IMG/VR virus record: IMGVR_UViG_3300033802_000250 | Source: a virus | Lineage: Duplodnaviria; Caudoviricetes | Length of the DNA stretch: 64,000 nt | Reading direction: 5' to 3' (one strand) | In this document: positions 148-21,037 of the stretch, one piece after another | Numbering within the stretch: the first letter of the stretch is position 1 | How the letters are laid out: each line of letters begins with the position of its first letter | Notes under the pieces: generated by a model | Seen by the model: the letters and a program-made list of their open reading frames with translations, nothing else | What the model was told of the DNA's origin: nothing | Database searches by the model: none | Translations under genes and position numbers: made by a program

Positions 148-3100
148 TTACTGAGCGGCGCGTACACGCTCAACGTGGATGCGGCAAAGCTCATAGTGTG
201 CTACTTGCAGAATGAACGCCTGCATTTCTGCCGGAACATTCGCGCCATTGACAAGCGCGAACTGCTTGCCTTCCACCGCGCGGACATCGAAATCTTTCGA
301 TTCGCCGCGTTTGTTGATGAGCGTCACTTTCGCGCACACATTACCGACAGCGACACTGTCAGTTTGCTCTACCGTCACGCCGACGATTCCATACTTGGTC
401 GGATTCGTCTTGACGCTCCAGTAGTCGGCATTCCGATTCAGGCGATTCATGATCTCGACTTTGAACTTCGGAATGCCGAGCGACTCGATGTCGATCATTT
501 CCTCTTTCGCCTGCTTGCGCGACGCTTGATGCACTTCGTCATAGGATATATACTCGTCTGCATTGATGCGCTCGCGTTTGCGTTGCGGTTTCTCCTCTGC
601 CTCATCCAGCGTGCGGATGAACTGGCAATCCAGCGCGTAGAACGACGCTTCCTTCGGCGCTTGATTCGGGCGTCTCACAACCGCGTCCAGCTTGTCCACA
701 TTCACGACCTTCAGTTCGCACGGCAGATACGGAGCCAGCAAGGCTTTGTGCTGACGTGCGACCGAACCCATGCGGTGCTTACCGATGTACACCGCCGCGC
801 GGATTTCATCACCGTCATGCTGTTTGCGCACCGTGATGATACCATCGTTTGCCTTGAGGGCGGCCAGAACTTCCTTCGCGCTGAATCCATTCGCTTTGAA
901 ACCGTAGAAGTCGAACGGGATGTGCTTGTCTTCCGGGATCAGCCGGTCGATCTTGTTCAGCGTCGAGATAGAGCGGGACTTCACTTTCACATACAGATTG
1001 CCGTTCTTCTTGAACGTTTCGTACGTCCCGTTCGGCACCTTGCAACGCACCACATAACCTTCACCGACGGACTTGCATTGATGGAACTTCAGCTTCTCCG
1101 GCACATTGTCGATGTGACCATCGTAGTGCGCCAGACGCAACTTCGTTTTGTTGTCGCTGGAATGGCTCGCATTCAGGAGCAGACCTTCGTAGCAGACAAC
1201 CCACGGGAACGAAATCGCCTTGCCTTTCGAGCCGTTGTCATGGTACGCATGTTGGTATGCGGCGGCGGCGATGGACGCGATATCCGAATCAATCGAGAGA
1301 ACAGCACGCTGATACTTATCCACAATATGGTTGATATACTCGCGTTGCTGGTCTTCATCGAGATCCAGTTCGTTCATCCGCTCAAAGTCCTTGCGGTACA
1401 TCCGCTCCAGCGTAGCGACAATCGGCTTGATACGCTCGACTTCTTCGTAATCAGCGGCAGACGCGAACTCGAAGCTGAAATCACGAGTCGTGATGCTGGA
1501 CTCCACGGACTTGTAATACTTTTGTTCGAGGTACTTCTCGATGGCCGCGTGCAGTTTGCCGATTCGGCTGTACGACTGGAACGGTTTCGCGTCTTCGTTG
1601 CCTGCCTTGTAGGCTTTTTCGCTCCACGGATGCCACGACGGCGAGACGGTAATCTTGACGACATCCGGCACCGGCGGGAAGTAACCGGTTTTTGCGTAAT
1701 CAATCGCCCAACCCTGCATAAAGCGGAGAATTTTGACGATTACGTCGATGTCATCAGCGGTGAGTTTGCCCACGATGTCGCGGATATGATCGAGATGCAA
1801 TTGCTCCGCGAGATCCTTCCACGACGTACTCATATCAGTGACTTGACCGATGGTCGGTGCATCACTGATGATCGTTGCATAGTCGAACTCATAAATCGAC
1901 TCATCGCAGACTTTCTTCTTCTCGCCGTCGCCGCCTTTATCGTACAGCATCGGGAGGTTGGTGTACACCGCTTTGACGATGGTTTCATCATCGACAATGG
2001 CGATTCTGTCACCATCCGTATCTGCACCACCCATGCGCGGAAGCGTATCGTCGTAAGGATTGAACACCAACACGTCTTTGAACAGCCCGTGGAACTGTTC
2101 AACGTTGACGGTGTTAATCACAACAGCCTCACTCCGATGAATCAGCGGCGAGCGAAAACCAGCGTAGGTCTTCTCCAGACCGTTGAAGTAGTATTCGCCG
2201 GGGCCGAGCAACGATTTCTTGCCGAACATGCACAGCGGATCGGTGATGATGAACGGATTCGCGCCGGGCACCGCAATGCGGCCAGTACCCATGTCGCGGA
2301 TATACCGCTCTCTCATTTCACGAAGCGACCGCTGGATATACGGATCACGAATCAGATCCGGGTTCTCGTTCAGCATTTCGAGAATCTTCTGGATGCGGCC
2401 ACCGGCCTTCGTCATATTGTCTTCGTAGTCATCCGCATCGCAGGTGGTATCAAGGCACCCGAGGAATGCCTTCGCATGATCGGCGTCTACGAAGATCGTA
2501 TCGCGCACTTCGTCGATGCGTGCTTTTGCGTAGTCAATCGGGTTGGCGATCTTCGGATTGAGCGCCTGCCAATACTGATAACCCATGTAGATGCGACCAT
2601 TGGTGCGCGGCTTGCTCCAGAGGACAATCTCGATCTTCACACGGTTGTCTTCCACGAGATTACCGTACTGATCGTACGCATTCACTTCGTTCGTCGTGAA
2701 CTTCTGGTCGAAGTTTGCCTTCCACATCGAATCTGTGAACAGGACATCGGCGTCGAAGTCGTACACATGCTCATCTTCGCCCCAAAACTTCATGACCTTG
2801 CCGGAGCGGCGCACCGTCTCACCGTTGCAATCCTGCCGATACTCCGGCAGATTGTGCGGGAACACCACGAGGCCGCCTTTGGCGAATCCGAAGCGGATGA
2901 GCCAGAATTGCGGGATCTTCTCCCACAGCTTCGCGAACTTTACATTGACCGCAACCAGCACGCGAGGATCGGAATTGACCGCTAATTGCTCCAGCAGATA
3001 GTCGCGCTCTGCGTTGCTGATGAGGTAAAGCTCATGTGCCCATTTCACGGCTCGTGCGGGCAAGACCGTACCTTGCCCATCGAGAGGGTTGTAATCCTTC

Positions 3101-3765
3101 TCGAAGTCTTTGACGAAGACCAACTCCTGCGTATCCGGGTCATACATTTCCACGTCATGCTTCCGGGTGATGATGTAGTCTGGCAACACATCGAACGTGA
3201 TCGGCTCGTCCATCTCAATCGACGACGACTCGATCAGACCGAAGCGGGACTCCATCTTGGAGATGACTTCGTACTCCTCGAACTGCGCACCATACGAGCA
3301 ACGGTAACGAATCTCATGCGGATTGCCGCTGGTGAACAGCGCCTTGCCGGTGCGCGATTTGGCCGCCGAACGGGATACGCGGCGGAACAGCGTCTTTGTG
3401 CCGTCCGGGTGAATCATATAGAACCCGTGGCGAAGTGCCTTCTTGATCTTCATCTTGGATTTGCACTTCTTGAAGTCCACGACAACGAAGTTGCGAGCCG
3501 AGCGCACTTTCTCCACCTCAAGCTCGACCAGACCATTCTCGTCGCGGCGCAAACGACCGAATTCGTCGCGGGCCAAACGTACCTTGTCCTCCCACATGTC
3601 TTTGCATTCCTTGCGGAACACGCGGCACTCCGACACCAACACCTTGCACGAACGCTTCTCGTTGTTGTCGAAGTCGCGCTCATGGAAGACCAGTTCATTG
3701 CCGACCCACACCATTTCACGGTTGTACACCAGACCAACAAGGTATTGCTCACGTTTCTTTGCCAT
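148..3765 (-). CDS. YonO-like single-subunit two-barrel RNA polymerase (cellular RdRP-related family), 1205 aa
   Basis: Catalytic DxDGD in MGGADTDGDR, upstream RSP motif (FRSPLIHRSE) and AIDYAKTG matching RdRP/YonO conserved blocks; RBS GAAAGGA before ATG. Confidence 0.88.
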   Translation of the reverse strand: MAKKREQYLVGLVYNREMVWVGNELVFHERDFDNNEKRSCKVLVSECRVFRKECKDMWEDKVRLARDEFGRLRRDENGLVELEVEKVRSARNFVVVDFKKCKSKMKIKKALRHGFYMIHPDGTKTLFRRVSRSAAKSRTGKALFTSGNPHEIRYRCSYGAQFEEYEVISKMESRFGLIESSSIEMDEPITFDVLPDYIITRKHDVEMYDPDTQELVFVKDFEKDYNPLDGQGTVLPARAVKWAHELYLISNAERDYLLEQLAVNSDPRVLVAVNVKFAKLWEKIPQFWLIRFGFAKGGLVVFPHNLPEYRQDCNGETVRRSGKVMKFWGEDEHVYDFDADVLFTDSMWKANFDQKFTTNEVNAYDQYGNLVEDNRVKIEIVLWSKPRTNGRIYMGYQYWQALNPKIANPIDYAKARIDEVRDTIFVDADHAKAFLGCLDTTCDADDYEDNMTKAGGRIQKILEMLNENPDLIRDPYIQRSLREMRERYIRDMGTGRIAVPGANPFIITDPLCMFGKKSLLGPGEYYFNGLEKTYAGFRSPLIHRSEAVVINTVNVEQFHGLFKDVLVFNPYDDTLPRMGGADTDGDRIAIVDDETIVKAVYTNLPMLYDKGGDGEKKKVCDESIYEFDYATIISDAPTIGQVTDMSTSWKDLAEQLHLDHIRDIVGKLTADDIDVIVKILRFMQGWAIDYAKTGYFPPVPDVVKITVSPSWHPWSEKAYKAGNEDAKPFQSYSRIGKLHAAIEKYLEQKYYKSVESSITTRDFSFEFASAADYEEVERIKPIVATLERMYRKDFERMNELDLDEDQQREYINHIVDKYQRAVLSIDSDIASIAAAAYQHAYHDNGSKGKAISFPWVVCYEGLLLNASHSSDNKTKLRLAHYDGHIDNVPEKLKFHQCKSVGEGYVVRCKVPNGTYETFKKNGNLYVKVKSRSISTLNKIDRLIPEDKHIPFDFYGFKANGFSAKEVLAALKANDGIITVRKQHDGDEIRAAVYIGKHRMGSVARQHKALLAPYLPCELKVVNVDKLDAVVRRPNQAPKEASFYALDCQFIRTLDEAEEKPQRKRERINADEYISYDEVHQASRKQAKEEMIDIESLGIPKFKVEIMNRLNRNADYWSVKTNPTKYGIVGVTVEQTDSVAVGNVCAKVTLINKRGESKDFDVRAVEGKQFALVNGANVPAEMQAFILQVAHYELCRIHVERVRAAQ

Positions 3766-3810
3766 AGTTCAATTGCCATCCTTTCGATTTTGGGAATGTT
3801 GTTGAGAAAA

Positions 3811-3866
3811 GCATAATTTCGTAGCTCGACAGCGAATTTTCGCCGCCCGCATACGAAAGCATAATT
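3811..3866 (-). promoter_or_regulatory. Two copies of the AATTATGC motif upstream of the RNAP gene
   Basis: GCATAATT on + at 3811-3818 and 3859-3866; same 8-mer at 6719-6726 and 7876-7883. Confidence 0.45.
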
Positions 3867-3912
3867 CCAGCCTTCTCGCCGCATTTGCACCACATCGGCG
3901 GCGCGGGCCCAA

Positions 3913-4104
3913 CTAACCACACAACACCTTCGCAACACGTACAGCCTCTTTGTGATACATACCGGTGATCTGTCTATCCGACATACCTTCGTACCACGAC
4001 AGAGGATACTTGTTACCGTGCATCCTCATCAACGCATCAATGCGTATCTGAATCTGGATGTCACGCTCCTCATACGGCACATACACCTTCGTAGCCATCT
4101 CCAT
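3913..4104 (-). CDS. Small hypothetical protein (about 63 aa)
   Basis: RBS GGGAGGTG before ATG 4104; co-oriented with RNAP gene. Confidence 0.75.
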   Translation of the reverse strand: MEMATKVYVPYEERDIQIQIRIDALMRMHGNKYPLSWYEGMSDRQITGMYHKEAVRVAKVLCG

Positions 4105-4148
4105 GTTCACCTCCCTTCGTTACAATCTCAGCAATGTACGGATATATG

Positions 4149-4187
4149 AAAAAGCGACGAGAGATCACATCACAACCTCTCATCGCT
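4149..4187 (-). terminator. Intrinsic terminator closing RNA B, upstream of the RNAP gene pair
   Basis: 15-bp stem with G-U pairs AGCGATGAGAGGTTG/TGATCTCTCGTCGCT followed by a U-run. Confidence 0.7.
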
Positions 4188-4307
4188 CCTCCATCACCCG
4201 TATGTCGCCAACACTTATCAGAACCTCTCCGGTTCCTTCCCTCAACAACACCCATCGCGCCTTGTCGGGACACCGACAAGCGCGGTTCTTCGCGTTGTTG
4301 TACAGCC

Positions 4308-4340
4308 GGTACAACGTACCACAATTGGTACAACGTACCA
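4308..4340. repeat. Tandem 14-bp direct repeat GGTACAACGTACCA x2; each copy is a small hairpin
   Basis: Copies at 4308-4321 and 4327-4340, partial third copy TACAACG 4341-4347. Confidence 0.9.
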
Positions 4341-4722
4341 TACAACGAGTGCGAGCGGTACGCCGAGGGGTGCGGAACCGAGCGAGAGAGCGACAAAAGC
4401 GACGATTTGACTCCCAATCGCGCAACATCGCTAGGGAGCAACGTCGCATTGTACGCAAAATGCAACGATGCAAGCGCAAAAAGCACAAGTTTGTTGTCGA
4501 TTCGTTGCAAATGCAACACCTCCATATCCGCGCCCGTCTGCGCCGTCGTCGCAGGTACAATGACGACGATGCTGTTAGACGCCGTAGTGTCGTATGGAAT
4601 CGCCGACAGGCGGGATATGTGGGGCCGCCTCGCTCCGCTCGGCGGCGCATCCACACCTGCAACGTCACTACAACAAACATGCAGAATCATCTGCATCGTC
4701 ACCAAGCTCGCTACCACCCCGC

Positions 4723-5502
4723 TCACGCCTCCACCTTGTCGCCGTTGTACGCAATCCATGCGTCCCGGATCTCCAGTCCGCTCGGCTTGCGATCATATTC
4801 GGCGACAAAGCTGGCGGTGAACTGCTTCAACCATTCAGGATCAACAGTTCCCCGGCGGCGGTTCGATGCAGATGCATTTTCCATGCGTTGCTCACCAACC
4901 ACCTCTTGGTTCGCAAGCTTGGCTTTGCGTTGCAGAATCTTAATCGGCGCGGGCATTGCCTTGATGCGACCGAATGCCTTCACGATGCGTGCAATGTCAC
5001 CATGCACACCGTTGGTGTACTTCTTGAAGATCGTGATCAGCGTTGCGTACGATACAATGCGGTCGCCGCGCACCGACGAATACATATGCAGACAGAAGTC
5101 TTTCTTCGACCAGCCGACAATGACTGTATCCGTCATCGTCCGACCGTTGACGCGATAGACAACCTTGATGTTGTCTGCGGACACGAACTCGATGAGTTTC
5201 TTCGGCTTCGATTCCGATTTCGTTCCACCGTCCTCGGCGACGACAGCGTCGTCACCTGCGGGCGGTGCGTCACTGTCGGACGGCACAAAGAACGCATCCG
5301 CACCGTCAGCATTGGCATCGTTGTTGTTGTGGGGATTGCGCTCGCTCGCCTCCGGCTCGCTCGCGCTCGCTTGCAGATCACTCATGCTCATCTGTTGCTT
5401 CTTCATCTCAATCGCCTCCATCAGTTTTTGTTTGCTCATTTTGGAGTAGCCGATAACCCCGAGTTCCTTTGCGACCTGTTTCAGTTCTTGTACGGTTGCC
5501 AT
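4723..5502 (-). CDS. Rho-N-terminal (HEH) domain protein, 259 aa
   Basis: N-terminus TVQELKQVAKELGVIGYSKMSKQKLMEAI fits the Rho_N pattern; RBS GAAAGGATG before ATG 5502; low-complexity linker then unknown domain. Confidence 0.8.
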   Translation of the reverse strand: MATVQELKQVAKELGVIGYSKMSKQKLMEAIEMKKQQMSMSDLQASASEPEASERNPHNNNDANADGADAFFVPSDSDAPPAGDDAVVAEDGGTKSESKPKKLIEFVSADNIKVVYRVNGRTMTDTVIVGWSKKDFCLHMYSSVRGDRIVSYATLITIFKKYTNGVHGDIARIVKAFGRIKAMPAPIKILQRKAKLANQEVVGEQRMENASASNRRRGTVDPEWLKQFTASFVAEYDRKPSGLEIRDAWIAYNGDKVEA

Positions 5503-5529
5503 TGTACAATCATCCTTTCTGAAATTTGA

Positions 5530-6340
5530 TTTTGTGTGTTGAAGTCCCATCTAAATAGTGGGATGCGACCGGCCCCGGCTCCAAAGACTCGGCCCCGTTT
5601 TGAACCCCTGTTTTGCGCGGCGCGGAGGACACGCACCGGAGGGATCACCCGGCGTGATGCCAGCCATGTGCGACGGACGACTGAGACTCTTGTTCGTTGG
5701 TGTGACGCACAATGTTCGCTGTACCTCCCGTATTCAGAGTTAGCTTGGAGGTCTCATGGATTGCGACCAGCCTACGCTGATCCCATGATTCCCCCGTCGC
5801 CAATGCGAGTTAGTGAGAGGACAGGAACACAGTGGGTGCGGCGACTTATGCTACGTTATCCTGCCGCGCGAGTCTCACACACGGCAGGTGGTAGGCCCAA
5901 CCGACGTGACGACTCAACTACCACTGTGTAAGCGATGTTCAAGCAATGGCAGTACGAACTGGCTACACAGCGGTAGTCAGTCCATGCGATTGTTGCCATG
6001 TTGTCAACATCCTTTCTGTCACCAACTCGCACGAACCGATTCCCTCATAGCGCAATCTATGAGTGGGGTGGTTCATCCCCAGTGTACGGCCCCCAACTCC
6101 ACCGTACACAAACCCGAGTTAGGAGTAGGTCGCGTGGAGCATAATGCTCGACGGACGGCTTTCCGTTCTTCGCCATTTCCGCCTTCCGCCCGGGCTATTT
6201 ATGCGTTTCGACTCCGCTGACCGAACCCTCATGGTCTCCCTATTACTCGTGACAATGCACTAGATACGGGGAAACAGAGTCCGATCTCCGGCGGGCGTAT
6301 GCCCGATTTGTTTCGGCATCACCTCCTTTCAGGTGATGTC
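5530..6340 (-). ncRNA. Putative large structured RNA A (about 800 nt)
   Basis: Stems: 5805-5816/6019-6030 (12 bp, 1 G-U), 5917-5930/5964-5977 (14 bp, 1 G-U), 5860-5866/5882-5888, 5670-5676/5794-5800, 6044-6063, 6082-6109; minus-strand G-U bias; no credible long ORF. Confidence 0.65.
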
Positions 6341-6343
6341 GTG

Positions 6344-6682
6344 CTACATTGCCTTCAGTTGCTCAATCTTGATGGCGAGCATAACTTCAAGCTTCACCTG
6401 ATCAGCACCATCGCTGTTGAATTTGCCATTCACCTCAAAGAATGCAACTTCACTCTCGGCCTGCGGAATGACAAACTTCAGGATGCGTTCTACCTGCTGT
6501 TCCGGGAGCCCGAACTCCTCCATCATGATGAGACGGCATTCGGCAATGAAGCTTTCACAGATAGCGCGATAGCTTTGTGTGTCAACCCTGATGCCTTCTT
6601 GCACGACCTGTTTCGCCAAACGATGTGACAGCATAGTCGATATGCCAATCTCAAACATGCGTTTGCGAGCGTGCGAAAGCAC
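6344..6682 (-). CDS. Hypothetical protein (about 112 aa)
   Basis: RBS GAAAGGAGGTG before GTG 6682. Confidence 0.75.
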   Translation of the reverse strand: MLSHARKRMFEIGISTMLSHRLAKQVVQEGIRVDTQSYRAICESFIAECRLIMMEEFGLPEQQVERILKFVIPQAESEVAFFEVNGKFNSDGADQVKLEVMLAIKIEQLKAM

Positions 6683-6754
6683 CTGTATCACCTCCTTTCG
6701 CGGCCCGTGGGATTAGCCGCATAATTTCAACCCCGGATTCACCTCCTTCCGGGT

Positions 6755-6782
6755 AAAGAAAAGGAGGAGCCGAAGCCCCTCC
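6755..6782 (-). terminator. Intrinsic terminator
   Basis: GGAGGGGC-TTCG-GCTCCTCC followed by TTTTCTTT. Confidence 0.85.
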
Positions 6783-6791
6783 ATCTTCACA

Positions 6792-7841
6792 TCAGTTGTT
6801 GGTTGCCGGTTTATTCACCGTGAGGCCGTTGCCTGCGATGATGTTGCCGGTAGCACGGAGCGTGTTGGCCGTGACATCGACACCTTTGTCCAGCACGTTG
6901 CAGGTGATATCCACCGCTTTGTGCATGACATCTCTGACCGTTGCAACACCGGCATGACCGTAGCGTTCAACACCATCGGCCACGTTGAAGAAGAAGTCAG
7001 CGACATGCTCGCGGATCTTCGGATTCTTGTTCATTGCCGTGACCTTGTTGAAGGCTTTGTCATAAGCGGCCTTGGTTTCTGCAATAGCCTTTTGGTCGCC
7101 GCTCTTGATGGCTTGAGAATAGGCGTTGAAAGCCTCCTTCATTTCCTCATTGGCGGCGATGTACTCAGCCCGGATCTCCTCCGGCGTCGGCTCGTTGGTC
7201 TTCACGTCTTTCTTCACCTCCTTATCCTTCTTCTCCGCTTTCGGTTGGGACTTGGCGGCCAGTTGCTTGCGGAGGCTGTCGTTCTCCTCCTTGAGTTGCT
7301 CGATTGCGGCATGGAGCGGTTTGGTTGCTTCAGCGATGGCGGCGCGAAGCTCCTTGCTGAAGACATCCGGGGTCATCACGATCATCGGTTGCTCTCCTCC
7401 TTGTTGGTTTTGCTTGTTGGCTTTGGTGTTCTTGTTGTTCGCCATGTTGGCTCCTCCTTTATTGTTTTTGCCTGCCGCCGGAGTCTCACCAACGGCAGGT
7501 TTCGTAGCGGATTTCGACTTGCCTTGCGGTTTGTTTTGCTCAGCCGCTTTGGCGTACAGTTCGCGATACATCTTCTTCAGGACTTGGCGGCTCATCGTCA
7601 TGTCTGCCTTGCCACCGAGCTTGGTGATTTCCTCAACCAGCTTCTTGCGTTCGTTGTACACGCCTTTCATGCGGTCGTGAACCAGTTCGACATCAGCGCG
7701 TTTCGAGTTACCGTTGAACTTCTCCAGACCAGCCTCCTTTGCGAATGCGGCGACTTCGATGTTCATCTCGGTTGCCATTGCCGTGATGTTTGCGCGAAGC
7801 TCCTTCACCGATACTACTGCCTTCGTGTTGTTGTTTTGCAT
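6792..7841 (-). CDS. Lys/Ala-rich coiled-coil hypothetical protein (about 349 aa) with internal in-frame starts
   Basis: RBS GAAAGGAG before ATG 7841; internal AGGAGG plus ATG at 7445 and 7385. Confidence 0.8.
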   Translation of the reverse strand: MQNNNTKAVVSVKELRANITAMATEMNIEVAAFAKEAGLEKFNGNSKRADVELVHDRMKGVYNERKKLVEEITKLGGKADMTMSRQVLKKMYRELYAKAAEQNKPQGKSKSATKPAVGETPAAGKNNKGGANMANNKNTKANKQNQQGGEQPMIVMTPDVFSKELRAAIAEATKPLHAAIEQLKEENDSLRKQLAAKSQPKAEKKDKEVKKDVKTNEPTPEEIRAEYIAANEEMKEAFNAYSQAIKSGDQKAIAETKAAYDKAFNKVTAMNKNPKIREHVADFFFNVADGVERYGHAGVATVRDVMHKAVDITCNVLDKGVDVTANTLRATGNIIAGNGLTVNKPATNN

Positions 7842-7942
7842 ACTGCATTCTCCTTTCTGCGTACCATGCTCGCCAGCATAATTTTGAGTGTGCTGTTGGT
7901 TGGTTATCCACCTGCGCCACGGGGAGGCCAGCACATGCAGGC

Positions 7943-7976
7943 AAAGAAAAAGAGCCCAACTTAGTAGTTGAGCCCT
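7943..7976 (-). terminator. Intrinsic terminator overlapping the stop of 7961..8566
   Basis: GGGCTCAACT-ACTA-AGTTGGGCTC then TTTTTCTTT. Confidence 0.8.
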
Positions 7977-8566
7977 CGTTCTTTAGCATATTGCTTGAGG
8001 AGTCTGCCGAGCGTCATACCGGTCAGTTTCCGGCTGTGCAATGACAGCGTAGACCAGTTGCGGCGAACCTCATCTTGACCGATCATCGTGTAGATATTGT
8101 TCTTGTAACGATACCGGTCGAACTCATTGAATGCAATGCGCACCGGCGGCCATTCAGGATCTTTCTCTGCGTAGTGCCAGTTGATGCGGCCACCGGGAGT
8201 GTAGTACGGAGGATTCTCGATGTAGTCCGGTTCTTCCATCTCCACCTGCGGCATGGTGATTTCTTCCGTGACCGTGATCGTGCGTTGTACGGTTCCGCTG
8301 TTTCTGATCACTCTCATCACCTGACTACGCAGTTCGTTGTTTTCCTTCATCAACTCAGCAATGGCTTTACCTTGCTCTGCCACGATGTCCATCAGATACT
8401 CGATCTGATTCCGCATGGCGTACATCTCTGCGTTGTAAGCCGAGACCGTGGTGTTATGGTACTCGGTGCGGCTGTGGCGAGCGATGATCTCCATGTCACT
8501 AGCCATCTGAGCCCGGGTCAGGTTCCACTTGCGAAGACGGTTGTTGGTGTTCTTCATGCTACCCAT
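7961..8566 (-). CDS. Hypothetical protein with coiled coil, 201 aa
   Basis: RBS GGAGGT; translationally coupled to the upstream gene. Confidence 0.75.
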   Translation of the reverse strand: MGSMKNTNNRLRKWNLTRAQMASDMEIIARHSRTEYHNTTVSAYNAEMYAMRNQIEYLMDIVAEQGKAIAELMKENNELRSQVMRVIRNSGTVQRTITVTEEITMPQVEMEEPDYIENPPYYTPGGRINWHYAEKDPEWPPVRIAFNEFDRYRYKNNIYTMIGQDEVRRNWSTLSLHSRKLTGMTLGRLLKQYAKERGLNY

Positions 8567-8910
8567 CAGTTATTACCTCCATTGTCTTTATTCAATGCGT
8601 TTTGCAAGAAGAAGGCAAATACCTTTTCTTGGTTCTCGGTGCGTGCCGGACGACTGAGCGGCTTCTGCTTCTTCATCATCTCCTGCTGGCGGCGCTTCAT
8701 GAAGTCGGGAATGTCTACTCTGTGTACGGGATCAATCGGGGGAATCATGTCTACAACCTCCTCTTGGATCACGGGTTTGGTGATCGGCAGGTAATAGTCG
8801 CTTACGACACCATCCTTGGTGACTTGGAAGCGACGGTAATCGCCTTCTTCAAATACCCTTACACTGTCAAACGAAATGTTCTTCAGATCGTCTTGTGAGA
8901 TGATGTTCAT
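8566..8910 (-). CDS. Hypothetical protein, 114 aa
   Basis: RBS AGAGGAGG; ATGA overlap with upstream gene. Confidence 0.75.
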   Translation of the reverse strand: MNIISQDDLKNISFDSVRVFEEGDYRRFQVTKDGVVSDYYLPITKPVIQEEVVDMIPPIDPVHRVDIPDFMKRRQQEMMKKQKPLSRPARTENQEKVFAFFLQNALNKDNGGNN

Positions 8911-9116
8911 CGTGCATCCTCCTCTTTTTTGTTGAGTTGATCGGGTCTCAGACCAGAGAAGCGAATCAGTTCATTCGCCTTTCCATTGTGCAGGCAGACG
9001 ATACGGTATTGCCCATCTCCAAGATATTCGGAGTAGACAAACCCTTTCTGCTCACAGAATCCGAGGTACTCCAGAGTCTCCTTGTTCTTTAGAACTGCTC
9101 TGTAGTTAATACGCAT
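8907..9116 (-). CDS. Small hypothetical protein (about 69 aa)
   Basis: RBS AAGGAGGTG before ATG 9116. Confidence 0.7.
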   Translation of the reverse strand: MRINYRAVLKNKETLEYLGFCEQKGFVYSEYLGDGQYRIVCLHNGKANELIRFSGLRPDQLNKKEEDAR

Positions 9117-9585
9117 AGCCATCACCTCCTTCCAACATCCTGATTCTCTTGAGGCACAGATTTACGAGATGGTCTTGCCCAACTCTGCGCAGTTGATCCA
9201 TGCAGTAGATCAGCATGTCAATCAACAGTTCTTTGTATCCGAGTTGTACAGCGTAGTGATCGGCAACGTACTCGGCGTGTTCGCCAAACCAGAAGCCATT
9301 GCCAAGCGGAGTAACGACATGCCCGATTTCATGTGCAACAATCGCCTCGGCCCACTTGCTGTTGATGAAGCGATCCATGTCGTAGACAATGATGAGGTAG
9401 TCGTATTGACCGATAGCTCCCGGGCCAGCCTCAGCAACAACAGTCAGCAGAATCGGATCAATGTTGTACTGTTCAATCATCTCCTTTGTGAAGCCGGTAG
9501 CACCCAAGCAGTAGTCAGGCGATTCGTAGATTGCCAACCTCTTGTTGGTGCCAAACTTTGCAGAATTGATGTTCATAACTTTCAT
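9106..9585 (-). CDS. HEXXH zinc metallopeptidase-like protein (about 159 aa)
   Basis: AIVAHEIGH followed by EYVADHYA (gluzincin-type third ligand); RBS AAGGAGG before ATG 9585. Confidence 0.75.
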   Translation of the reverse strand: MKVMNINSAKFGTNKRLAIYESPDYCLGATGFTKEMIEQYNIDPILLTVVAEAGPGAIGQYDYLIIVYDMDRFINSKWAEAIVAHEIGHVVTPLGNGFWFGEHAEYVADHYAVQLGYKELLIDMLIYCMDQLRRVGQDHLVNLCLKRIRMLEGGDGYAY

Positions 9586-9784
9586 CTTGCATTCCTCCTT
9601 CTCGTGGTAGGTCACGACCCATTTCAGCAGGGGGTGGGGCATGAAACGGCAGATGGCCCCCTTGCAAAAAAGAGAGGTGGTACTGCGAGAAAATTTATAT
9701 ATTTTTCCGGCCTATAGGGCTTCCATTTCTTGCCAAAATATTTCTTGACGAAACTGCCGTATGGTCTATGAAGTTGGCAGATAT

Positions 9785-19066: not shown

Positions 19067-20557
19067 ATGGCGTTCAACAAAGCCCGTGGCTCTCAAATCC
19101 AAGCTGGTGCAATCACGAACGCTCACATCGCGGAAGGCGCGGCGATTGACGAATCCAAGCTGTCCATCGACTGGTCGGCCCGCACGCAACAGATCCTCGC
19201 ATCCCGCACGGTCATTGATTTCGTGCAGGTCAACGGCAAGGCTGTTCCGGGGAACTCGGGAAGCATCACGGTTACGTCGAACATCTCGGCACCGGTTGCC
19301 GACAGCGACGATGATCGCGGCGCGGTCGTACAGAGCGGCAAGAACCTTGTCATCATCCGGGATTCGGTGACTGGTGAACCGCTTCGCGGCGAAGCCAACA
19401 AAGAGGTTTACGGGAAGCTGACCCATGATGGCTCGGACTACATCCTGACGTTCTACACGAAGGACGGCAACGGCGACGAGGTGACGCATACCATTGCCGA
19501 TGCGACGACCATCGACTTCCAGTTCCCGCAACGTTTTGATCTCGCGACGGTGAGTGAAACCTTTGCGGCCAACGAGAAGTTCGTTGACGGCGCGGCAGAT
19601 GTATCCACCCGTCTCGACATCGAGCAAATCGCGAAGGATGTCTTCGGCGCTGGATACTCGCTTGACAAAGACGGCCAAGCGAATCGTGCGAAGTCGATTG
19701 CGGACGAACTCGTCGATGAAACGTCCGGTGTGGTCAACACGACCGTTCGCGCCAAAAACGTGATCGACGAAGTCGTAGCCGCTCGCGGCGGCCAAGTGTC
19801 GCTGGATGCTCGTCTCATCGCCATCGAAAGCGGCGTCTCTGACAACGCATCGGACATCTCGGATATCCAAAGCGAGATCGCGAGCGCTCGCGGAAGCTCC
19901 GCGTCGCTGGCGGATGAACTGGCGCGGATTGAAAATGCGGCGTCGAACTCCAACGACGAAGTCGTCGGGGCACGTACGTCTGCGATCACCGGCGCACACG
20001 CTTCGTTGGCAGATCGCATCGGGGCGGCAGAAACCCGCTACGAAGCGGTGAAGGATGAAGTCGAAGCGGCTCGCGGCGGATCGGAGGATCTGGCCGAAGA
20101 ACTGGCTCGCATCGAAGGCAAAGCAGACGATGCGCAATCCGATGCGAACGATGCGCTGGCTGAACTGCAAACGGCCCGCAATGGCAAGGAAAATCTGAAT
20201 GCCGAGCTTGAAGCGATTCGCCAATCGGTTGCAGATGAAGCATCGGCTCGCGAAGGTGCCGATACGGCGCTTGGCAACCGGGTGACGGCGCTTGAAGCAA
20301 AGGATCACGAACACTTCGCTGAAGACAAGCAAGTGCAATCCGGCGATCCGCTGATCGGAACGTCGAACTACACGCTTCAGTCCGGTACGTTCGTTGCGGG
20401 CAACAAGAGTCTGCAAGTGTACGTCAACGGCTTCCTGCAAATGGTCGGCGTACATTACACTGAAGTCACCGACGGCAACGGTAACGGTGTAGGCGTGAGC
20501 TTCGCGCCGGAACTGATCGTCGAAGGTGACGTTCTGCAATTCCGTTGGCATAAGTAA
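19067..20557 (+). CDS. Virion fibre/whisker-like protein with E-x-x-x-ARG coiled-coil repeats
   Basis: Five EVxxARG...SLxxxL repeats; C-terminal LQVYVNG...YTE beta domain. Confidence 0.7.
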   Translation: MAFNKARGSQIQAGAITNAHIAEGAAIDESKLSIDWSARTQQILASRTVIDFVQVNGKAVPGNSGSITVTSNISAPVADSDDDRGAVVQSGKNLVIIRDSVTGEPLRGEANKEVYGKLTHDGSDYILTFYTKDGNGDEVTHTIADATTIDFQFPQRFDLATVSETFAANEKFVDGAADVSTRLDIEQIAKDVFGAGYSLDKDGQANRAKSIADELVDETSGVVNTTVRAKNVIDEVVAARGGQVSLDARLIAIESGVSDNASDISDIQSEIASARGSSASLADELARIENAASNSNDEVVGARTSAITGAHASLADRIGAAETRYEAVKDEVEAARGGSEDLAEELARIEGKADDAQSDANDALAELQTARNGKENLNAELEAIRQSVADEASAREGADTALGNRVTALEAKDHEHFAEDKQVQSGDPLIGTSNYTLQSGTFVAGNKSLQVYVNGFLQMVGVHYTEVTDGNGNGVGVSFAPELIVEGDVLQFRWHK

Positions 20558-20566
20558 TGCCAATGC

Positions 20567-20604
20567 AAATAGGTCTGTCCGCAAGTGCGGATGGGCCTAT
20601 TTTT
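20567..20604 (+). terminator. Intrinsic terminator
   Basis: AAATAGGTCTGTCCGC...GCGGATGGGCCTATTT followed by T-run. Confidence 0.8.
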
Positions 20605-20710
20605 AGTTGCAAATCTTGTAAACGCCATTGTATAGTGTTTTGTAGAGGGGATTGTCAGCATTGACATTGTCGATTGTTGCATCCTACTATCGCAGAAAGG
20701 GGGAGCCCGA

Positions 20711-20920
20711 TTGAAGTACAATGAGCCTATTGATTTCAACGCACCAAGGGTGAAACCTGCGGAGCAGGATATCAAAATCAAATGTCGCTACTGTGATCTG
20801 AGAGATATCTGCAAACGTCGTGCGGTGAAAGAGCAATACGAAAACGCGGGCTGGATTACCCGTTGTCGTATCACGCCGAACCGCCCCGGCAAGAAACGCA
20901 AGGCAAAAAAGAGGAAGTGA
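20711..20920 (+). CDS. Small Cys-containing basic protein with its own sigma-A-like promoter
   Basis: CRYC...C; TTG start with RBS GAAAGGGGGAG; TTGACA(20661)-18-TACTAT(20685). Confidence 0.65.
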   Translation: MKYNEPIDFNAPRVKPAEQDIKIKCRYCDLRDICKRRAVKEQYENAGWITRCRITPNRPGKKRKAKKRK

Positions 20921-21037
20921 CGACAACGCTGTCGGCGCTTCCGCCGATCTGCGAAACTATTGTAATGCCCTAGTACATATTGTAATATTTCTTTAGGGGC
21001 TACATTGTAGGCTTTGTCGTCAACCGAGGGTGGTGAT

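What the first reader, a model, noticed from the sequence alone, without database searches (positions are those of the whole stretch)
148..6340. Candidate new module: RdRP/YonO-like polymerase preceded by two large structured RNAs flanking a Rho-N protein
Seen: minus-strand order is RNA A (about 800 nt), Rho-N protein, RNA B (about 560 nt), terminator, 63-aa gene, 1205-aa DxDGD polymerase. About 1.4 kb of an otherwise tightly packed genome is non-coding and densely base-paired on the coding strand. Known: SPbeta YonO is a DNA-dependent RNAP homologous to eukaryotic RNAi RdRPs; Rho-N/HEH domains bind nucleic acid; cis RNAs such as HK022 put and Bacillus EAR make RNAP terminator-resistant. Inference: the RNAs and Rho-N protein form a ribonucleoprotein that gates read-through into the polymerase gene, or serve as cofactor, decoy or template of the enzyme. 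I know of no described YonO-associated large RNA.
Basis: partly seen in the sequence, partly recalled or inferred. Interest (0 to 1): 0.9.

Follow-up and report, generated by a model that had tools for sequence, protein, structure and literature searches.

The report
Phage genome-end signal plus leader RNA
The two folded non-coding stretches are separate things: one is very likely where this giant phage's DNA molecule ends (the inner edge of its long terminal repeat), and the other is an undescribed structured RNA that probably switches translation of the next gene; neither looks like a dedicated partner of the RNA polymerase.

Summary
The layout is real and conserved in 14 relatives of Bacillus phage 0305phi8-36, but it is not one ribonucleoprotein module. 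'RNA B' (4105-4722) straddles the spot where the 6.5-kb terminal repeat of 0305phi8-36 ends (homologous position 4374-4376); close strains switch from 99% to about 73% identity exactly there. It carries fixed-sequence motifs: an invariant hairpin whose loop always reads GNA or GNNA on the template strand (14/14; the stable DNA mini-hairpin type) and tandem palindromic boxes, whose half-site also flanks the other repeat end (about 9677). Its covariation is weak. It is best read as a DNA end signal, placed like the T5 injection-stop region. 'RNA A' (5503-6343) is a covarying structured RNA with no Rfam match, with pseudoknots, two small ORFs and one pyrimidine strand able to pair with either of two ribosome-binding sites: probably a translational leader of the Rho-N gene (gp101 family). 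Two relatives lack it, and it does not track the Rho-N domain. The claimed terminator is not conserved, and other YonO-like loci lack all of this. No expression data. The scan had not noted this before.

The parts
148..3765 (-). Single-chain two-barrel (YonO/RdRP-like) RNA polymerase, orthologue of 0305phi8-36 gp99
   Evidence: 43% identity over 99% of length; PF05183; DxDGD invariant in 26 sequences
3913..4104 (-). 63-aa gene, gp100-like, conserved between gap B and the polymerase
   Evidence: tblastn hits in 9 related loci; weak match to gp100
4105..4722 (.). Gap B: palindrome-rich non-coding region straddling the inner edge of the terminal repeat
4113..4152 (-). Bipartite conserved motif (AT-rich block, 16-nt spacer, TTGTWAC), one strong copy per locus; possible promoter or protein site for gp100 and the polymerase gene
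   Evidence: 11 loci give seeds; the matrix also finds L033 and L038, which were not seeds
4307..4340 (.). Two tandem 15-bp imperfect palindromic boxes, 4 nt apart, just outside the predicted end
   Evidence: central dyad in 12 of 15 family loci, 0.28 expected per 64 kb
4374..4376 (.). Predicted virion DNA end J (inner edge of the terminal repeat)
   Evidence: homologous to 0305phi8-36 position 212470; identity to L002 drops here; strain differences cluster at 4340-4373
4384..4418 (-). Conserved GGG-hairpin followed by a pyrimidine tract ending 8-10 nt before J
   Evidence: 11 loci
4601..4614 (+). Invariant hairpin, stem CGCC/GGCG, loop GNA or GNNA on the + (template) strand: DNA mini-hairpin type
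   Evidence: 14/14 loci that cover it; only the two repeat copies in the whole 0305phi8-36 genome; loop rule from PMC13037366
4723..5502 (-). gp101-family protein: N-terminal Rho-N/HEH domain, acidic linker, beta-sheet domain, helical hairpin; last gene of the terminal repeat
   Evidence: (phrog_36578)
5503..6343 (-). Gap A: large structured RNA, probably the translational leader of gp101
5551..5712 (-). Second small ORF (TTG, 53 codons), peptide not conserved, stops 48 nt before gp101
   Evidence: equivalent ORFs start with ATG in relatives
5724..5729 (-). Second ribosome-binding site, 92-107 nt after the switch strand in 10/10 loci
5817..5824 (-). Pyrimidine switch strand, able to pair with either ribosome-binding site
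5860..5888 (-). Hairpin whose loop is complementary (8 bp) to 5690-5682: long-range pseudoknot; stem covaries with L003
5856..5999 (-). First small ORF (47 codons) behind a purine-rich site at 6020-6010
   Evidence: ATG 7-11 nt behind the equivalent site in 9 of 11 loci
6082..6130 (-). Predicted H-type pseudoknot; stem with two compensatory changes in L003
   Evidence: crossing helix seen by eye
6319..6330 (-). Very strong 16S-complementary run without a well-spaced start codon; possible 5' stabiliser (STAB-SD-like)
   Evidence: -17.2 kcal/mol; role is inference from my own knowledge of Bacillus mRNA decay
9632..9647 (-). Near-invariant 16-mer just inside the other repeat end
   Evidence: 11/11 loci that cover it
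9677..9677 (.). Predicted outer end E of the terminal repeat (repeat about 5.3 kb), directly after a half-site of the palindromic box
   Evidence: aligns with the last base of the 0305phi8-36 record

Best explanation
The window is the junction region of a 0305phi8-36-like jumbo phage with a long direct terminal repeat (about 4374-9677). Gap B is the DNA signal region at the inner edge of that repeat. Shown: its position, its fixed-sequence motifs and the mosaic break. Inferred: the packaging machinery recognises the palindromic boxes that lie outside both repeat ends and cuts at J, and the template-strand mini-hairpin is read on single-stranded or extruded DNA by a primase or RNA polymerase when the repeat is duplicated or packaging starts. 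Gap A is a separate, dispensable cis-acting RNA leader of gp101. Shown: covarying helices and pseudoknots, constant spacing, two small ORFs with unconserved peptides. Inferred: one pyrimidine strand pairs with site 1 or with site 2; a ribosome on the first ORF frees the strand to hide site 2, and without it site 2 opens and translation runs up to gp101. The polymerase gene sits there because it is the first large gene after the early repeat.
For: Repeat edge of 0305phi8-36 lies inside the homologous gap (fixed ends, PMC3357382); terminase 67% identical. Both ends map by sequence. Window and L002 are 95-100% identical from about 5930 to exactly 4374, then 69-75%; other strains diverge at 4340-4373. 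Hairpin stem never varies while loop length does, always G..A on the + strand, as in DNA mini-hairpins at primase sites and N4 promoters. Doubly changed pairs stay Watson-Crick in 17/20 cases in A, 4/10 in B. Pseudoknot loop and partner match natively better than in any other of 5040 permutations. First ORF stops within -4 to +11 nt of the kink-turn hairpin in 7 relatives. Gap A absent in L033 and L038.
Against: The ends of this phage were not measured; J and E rest on homology. Some gap B hairpins show compensatory changes and G-U pairs on the sense strand, so it may also act as RNA; the G-T versus A-C strand tests were uninformative. The counts are small and taken in both directions. Pseudoknot loops were picked by eye before the swap test. 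Covariation of switch strand with site 2 is not significant (p 0.13). A model from the other subgroups finds L003 weakly (19 bits, E 0.09) and misses the window, so one family for all gap A RNAs rests on layout, not on score.
Confidence: 0.6

Rival explanations
1. Gap B is an injection-stop signal: the terminal repeat enters first, entry pauses at gap B until early proteins such as gp101 are made, then the polymerase gene and the rest follow, as in T5. Compatible with the best explanation.
For: T5 iss lies in a 1662-bp palindrome-rich non-coding region straddling the inner repeat edge (10.1101/866236); the end carrying these genes was proposed to enter first (PMC2147016); gp101 lies next to gap B in all loci.
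Against: No DnaA-box array: none in the window, 9 in 8.1 kb across the family versus 2.6 expected; no A1 or A2 match among the repeat genes scanned; the cut site alone explains the position.
Confidence: 0.25
2. Gap A is a stand-alone large non-coding RNA (ROOL/GOLLD-like, or a ribosome decoy with several 16S-complementary sites), released by processing, with the small ORFs incidental.
For: About 600-850 nt, several pseudoknots and kink-turns; strong 16S-complementary run at the 5' edge; lytic phages of Gram-positive hosts make abundant long RNAs of unknown role (PMC9241854).
Against: Always about 290-330 nt from switch strand to gp101 start; start codons correctly spaced behind both purine sites; no terminator after it; no tRNA nearby; no Rfam match.
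Confidence: 0.25
3. One reading: both regions are RNAs that bind the Rho-N protein and gate read-through into the polymerase gene, or act as its cofactor or template.
For: Fixed order in the family; Rho-N/HEH fold confirmed; sense-strand G-U hairpins in outer gap B.
Against: Terminator not conserved; gap A and Rho-N domain do not co-occur strictly; absent at other YonO-like loci; the polymerase gene of 0305phi8-36 was judged monocistronic; at one genome end gap B is cut in half.
Confidence: 0.08
4. Gap A is a self-splicing intron or self-cleaving ribozyme, or a relic of one.
For: Present in some relatives and absent in others; a hammerhead sits elsewhere in the repeat of L007.
Against: Interrupts no reading frame; no Rfam intron or ribozyme hit even at E 5-10; HDV-like and pistol cores could not be fitted by eye.
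Confidence: 0.07

Closest known systems
Bacillus phage 0305phi8-36 terminal repeat and orf99-orf107 region
   Same: Same gene order, polymerase 43%, terminase 67%, both repeat ends and both gaps present
   Different: The two papers read describe no motif at the ends and no RNA in the repeat; its gp101 has lost most of the Rho-N domain; repeat 6.5 kb versus about 5.3 kb predicted here
T5 injection-stop region (10.1101/866236)
   Same: Large palindrome-rich non-coding region straddling the inner edge of a long terminal repeat of pre-early genes
   Different: No DnaA-box array, no A1/A2; two-step entry unknown; followed by a phage RNA polymerase gene
DNA mini-hairpins at G4 and ssiA primase sites and N4 promoters; Streptomyces telomere palindromes (PMC13037366, PMC5449611)
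   Same: C-G closed GNA or GNNA loop on a short GC stem, near a DNA end or an initiation site
   Different: Recognising protein unknown; lies 170-310 nt inside the end of a double-stranded phage genome
T7/T3 concatemer-junction processing (own knowledge)
   Same: Phage RNA polymerase gene next to the repeat; hairpin plus pyrimidine tract just before the cut could be a pause site
   Different: Two-barrel enzyme, repeat about 30 times longer, no T7-type promoter; pausing untested
IncI1/IncB repY-repZ leader (PMC8053102)
   Same: Leader ORF, pseudoknot and ribosome-site occlusion upstream of the controlled gene
   Different: Two leader ORFs, a kink-turn in relatives, no antisense RNA found, controlled gene is not a Rep initiator, no sequence relation
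SPbeta YonO (PMC5467207)
   Same: Single-chain two-barrel polymerase with DxDGD
   Different: Only 23% identity over about 235 residues; 1205 aa; different neighbourhood

Membership tests
YonO-like two-barrel RNA polymerase | DxDGD motif and RdRP-like double-barrel region | tested here: met
YonO-like two-barrel RNA polymerase | DNA-dependent transcription of phage genes | not testable with these tools
   shown for YonO only
0305phi8-36-like jumbo phages | Full-length gp99 and terminase orthologues, synteny of gp100-gp107 | tested here: met
Long direct terminal repeat boundary | Sequence homologous to the annotated ends of a fixed-end relative | tested here: met
Long direct terminal repeat boundary | Physical DNA ends or doubled read depth in this phage | not testable with these tools
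   only contigs available
T5 injection-stop signal | Palindrome-rich non-coding region straddling the inner repeat edge | tested here: met
T5 injection-stop signal | Ordered array of 8 DnaA boxes | tested here: not met
T5 injection-stop signal | Two-step DNA entry needing early proteins | not testable with these tools
   needs infection experiments
DNA mini-hairpin | GNA or GNNA loop closed by two G-C pairs (GC-GC or CC-GG) | tested here: met
   14/14 on the + strand
put/EAR processive antiterminators | Conserved terminator downstream that must be read through | tested here: not met
put/EAR processive antiterminators | Match to a described RNA model | tested here: not met
GOLLD/ROOL/OLE large RNAs | Match to the Rfam models | tested here: not met
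GOLLD/ROOL/OLE large RNAs | Abundant discrete transcript | not testable with these tools
   no RNA run could be laid
repY-repZ type leader-pseudoknot switch | Leader ORF, pseudoknot and occluded ribosome-binding site | tested here: inconclusive
   all three predicted and partly covarying; coupling untested
repY-repZ type leader-pseudoknot switch | Antisense RNA against the pseudoknot loop | tested here: inconclusive
   no sigma-70-like promoter in gap A on either strand
repY-repZ type leader-pseudoknot switch | Controlled gene is a plasmid replication initiator | tested here: not met
   gp101 matches no Rep family
Group I/II introns and small ribozymes | Catalytic core model match, interrupted gene | tested here: not met

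The most novel reading that the evidence does not exclude
The phage's own two-barrel polymerase recognises the template-strand DNA mini-hairpin in gap B, as N4 polymerase does its hairpin promoters, makes a 170-310 nt RNA that pauses at the hairpin and pyrimidine tract 8-10 nt before J, and so marks or primes the terminal-repeat end; gap A times the supply of gp101 through a two-ORF ribosome relay.
Probability: 0.2. Interest if true: 0.85.

Novelty: new variant of a known kind. Interest (0 to 1): 0.58.

Why it matters
How kilobase-long terminal repeats (T5, SPO1 type) are regenerated and cut, and what YonO-like polymerases recognise, are open questions (the YonO promoter was left undetermined in PMC5467207). 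Comparison across this family now gives a short list of invariant end motifs that can be mutated in a phage that grows in the laboratory (0305phi8-36). Gap A adds a candidate RNA class absent from Rfam, with an unusual layout of two ribosome-binding sites competing for one strand. The family is small (about 25 polymerase clusters), which limits general reach.

Tried and rejected
No whole genome held. No RNA holder listed, so nothing on expression. Contig depth rises above about 4370 in two runs, but contig depth is no copy number and was not used. Rfam: nothing at gathering score; a GA-cis partial hit (22.8 bits versus 34.7) rejected. No tRNA or tmRNA. The 229-codon frame over gap B has no family match and no consistent equivalent. 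IMG/VR, metagenome and GTDB scans added only 0305phi8-36, L033 and distant loci. The end 16-mer in viral contigs gave unrelated hits. G-T versus A-C counts did not tell the strand. gp101 fold searches gave only the Rho N-domain (Z 5.4, rmsd 2.1, 41 residues); the other domains had no clear match, Atlas blank. Model R1 had only 5 pairs and missed the window. A candidate polymerase promoter (TTATGC-containing repeat before the gene) is shared by only part of the family. HDV-like, pistol, T-box, SAM-I, cobalamin and RNase P readings were considered from memory and did not fit. One search was an irrelevant comparison; some searches were input errors. Look-ups in earlier findings gave nothing that bears on this.
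Full report
Identity. The 1205-aa gene is a two-barrel polymerase (PF05183; DxDGD invariant), 43% identical over its length to gp99 of Bacillus phage 0305phi8-36 and only 23% to SPbeta YonO over a part. The terminase is 67% identical to that of 0305phi8-36. About 25 full-length relatives exist, many on contigs of about 210 kb. I fetched 14 distinct loci. All that reach far enough keep the order gp101 family gene, gap B, small gene or genes, polymerase. Gap A lies before gp101 in 11 of them and is absent in L033 and L038.

Observation. Coordinates are right. Gap B folds far better than shuffles and than control windows; gap A moderately. Gap B folds on both strands and as DNA. Gap A holds two small ORFs behind purine-rich sites. 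The claimed terminator is a weak hit whose T run is missing in the nearest relative and most others.

Gap B is the terminal-repeat edge. In 0305phi8-36, which has fixed ends and a 6479-bp repeat, the inner edge of the repeat falls inside this gap, 8 nt after a conserved hairpin and pyrimidine tract. The equivalent place in the window is 4374-4376. Independently, the window and L002 are 95-100% identical from about 5930 to exactly 4374 and 69-75% beyond, and strains in other metagenomes differ in a cluster at 4340-4373, one with a loose end at 4370. A genome end is a natural exchange point (inference). The other end maps to 9677, between a box half-site and a near-invariant 16-mer found in 11 of 11 loci. 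The repeat is thus about 5.3 kb and ends just after gp101.

The conserved parts of gap B look like DNA signals. A 4-bp GC stem is unchanged in 14 of 14 loci while its loop varies in length and middle but always reads G..A on the template strand. It occurs only in the two repeat copies of the whole 0305phi8-36 genome. This is the loop rule of extra-stable DNA mini-hairpins, whose RNA versions are much weaker, and which occur at primase sites and N4 promoters and, as GNA loops, in Streptomyces telomeres. Tandem palindromic boxes lie just outside J in 12 of 15 loci, and the same half-site flanks the other end. Covariation is weak (4 of 10 double changes stay paired), though some outer hairpins are kept by compensatory changes with sense-strand G-U pairs, so an RNA role is not excluded. 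The T5 injection-stop region has the same placement, but the DnaA-box array is missing.

Gap A is a structured RNA. Double changes keep pairing in 17 of 20 cases (counted in both directions); 47 of 216 consensus pairs in the window's subgroup of three sequences change on both sides. In seven relatives a hairpin loop, most with a kink-turn pattern seen by eye, pairs with a downstream strand, and the native pairing is the best of 5040 permutations (loops chosen by eye). The window has an analogous 8-bp loop pairing shared with L003. All ten distinct copies have a pyrimidine strand whose best downstream partner is a ribosome-binding site 92-107 nt later, followed by a short ORF that stops before gp101 or fuses with it. 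In most copies its upstream partner is a purine-rich site with a start codon 7-11 nt behind it, and in seven relatives that first ORF stops at the pseudoknot hairpin. The peptides are not conserved. The strand lies about 290-330 nt from the gp101 start throughout. No Rfam family matches. Limits: covariation of the strand with site 2 is not significant (p 0.13), and a model from the other subgroups finds L003 weakly and misses the window.

Mechanism, inferred. Site 1 and site 2 compete for one strand. A ribosome on the first ORF leaves the strand free to hide site 2; otherwise site 2 opens and ribosomes are delivered next to gp101. This works like the leader-peptide and pseudoknot control of IncI1/IncB repZ but is not a member of that system. 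I put a cis leader at about 0.6 and a free RNA at about 0.25.

Against one ribonucleoprotein module. The Rho-N domain is real and present in most gp101 proteins, but it is strong in the two phages without gap A and degenerate in two with it. Seventeen distant YonO-like loci lack gp101 and the hairpin. The 0305phi8-36 polymerase gene was judged monocistronic, and a conserved motif in outer gap B may be its promoter.

Verdict. Real features, wrong framing. The polymerase and the repeat are known from 0305phi8-36; in the papers and libraries searched I found no description of the end motifs or of the gap A RNA. The most interesting open reading is that the polymerase itself uses the mini-hairpin to mark or prime the genome end (about 0.2). 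Interest 0.58.

Noticed in passing
L007:5129-5201 (+): Type II hammerhead ribozyme above the Rfam cut-off (43.3 bits) between two genes of the terminal repeat of a relative.
   Followed up: no
L033 (NZ_CP186007.1): A 206-kb 'plasmid' of Paenibacillus sp. EC2-1 carries this polymerase, gp101 and both end signals: probably a family member kept as a circular element; it lacks gap A.
   Followed up: partly
window 9087-9589: The first gene of the repeat (178 aa, weak metalloprotease-like hits) is replaced by another allele in several strains, with the same borders.
   Followed up: no
window 7883, 6726, 3866, 3818 (-): An 8-nt motif with a TTATGC core recurs upstream of three early genes, twice before the polymerase gene; shared by L002, L003, L004, L006, L043. 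Candidate promoter or operator.
   Followed up: partly
L008:6700-6870 (+): Five copies of a 20-nt repeat in outer gap B of 0305phi8-36, with a sixth before the polymerase gene.
   Followed up: no
L003:14484 (+): Second copy of the gap B mini-hairpin with its AT-rich flank downstream of the polymerase gene; a similar copy at L006:7641.
   Followed up: no
window 5545-5551 (-): A 7-nt motif (consensus CACTAAT) sits about 45-55 nt before the gp101 start in nearly all gap A copies; role unexplained.
   Followed up: partly
window 20540-21030 (+): Folds better than shuffles (z -4.1), mostly from two strong hairpins after a gene, one terminator-like; holds small ORFs.
   Followed up: yes
L002, L003, L004, L038 downstream of the polymerase: NADAR fused to RNase H, and YspA/YAcAr and Macro genes nearby in relatives: an ADP-ribose counter-defence cluster in the early region.
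   Followed up: no
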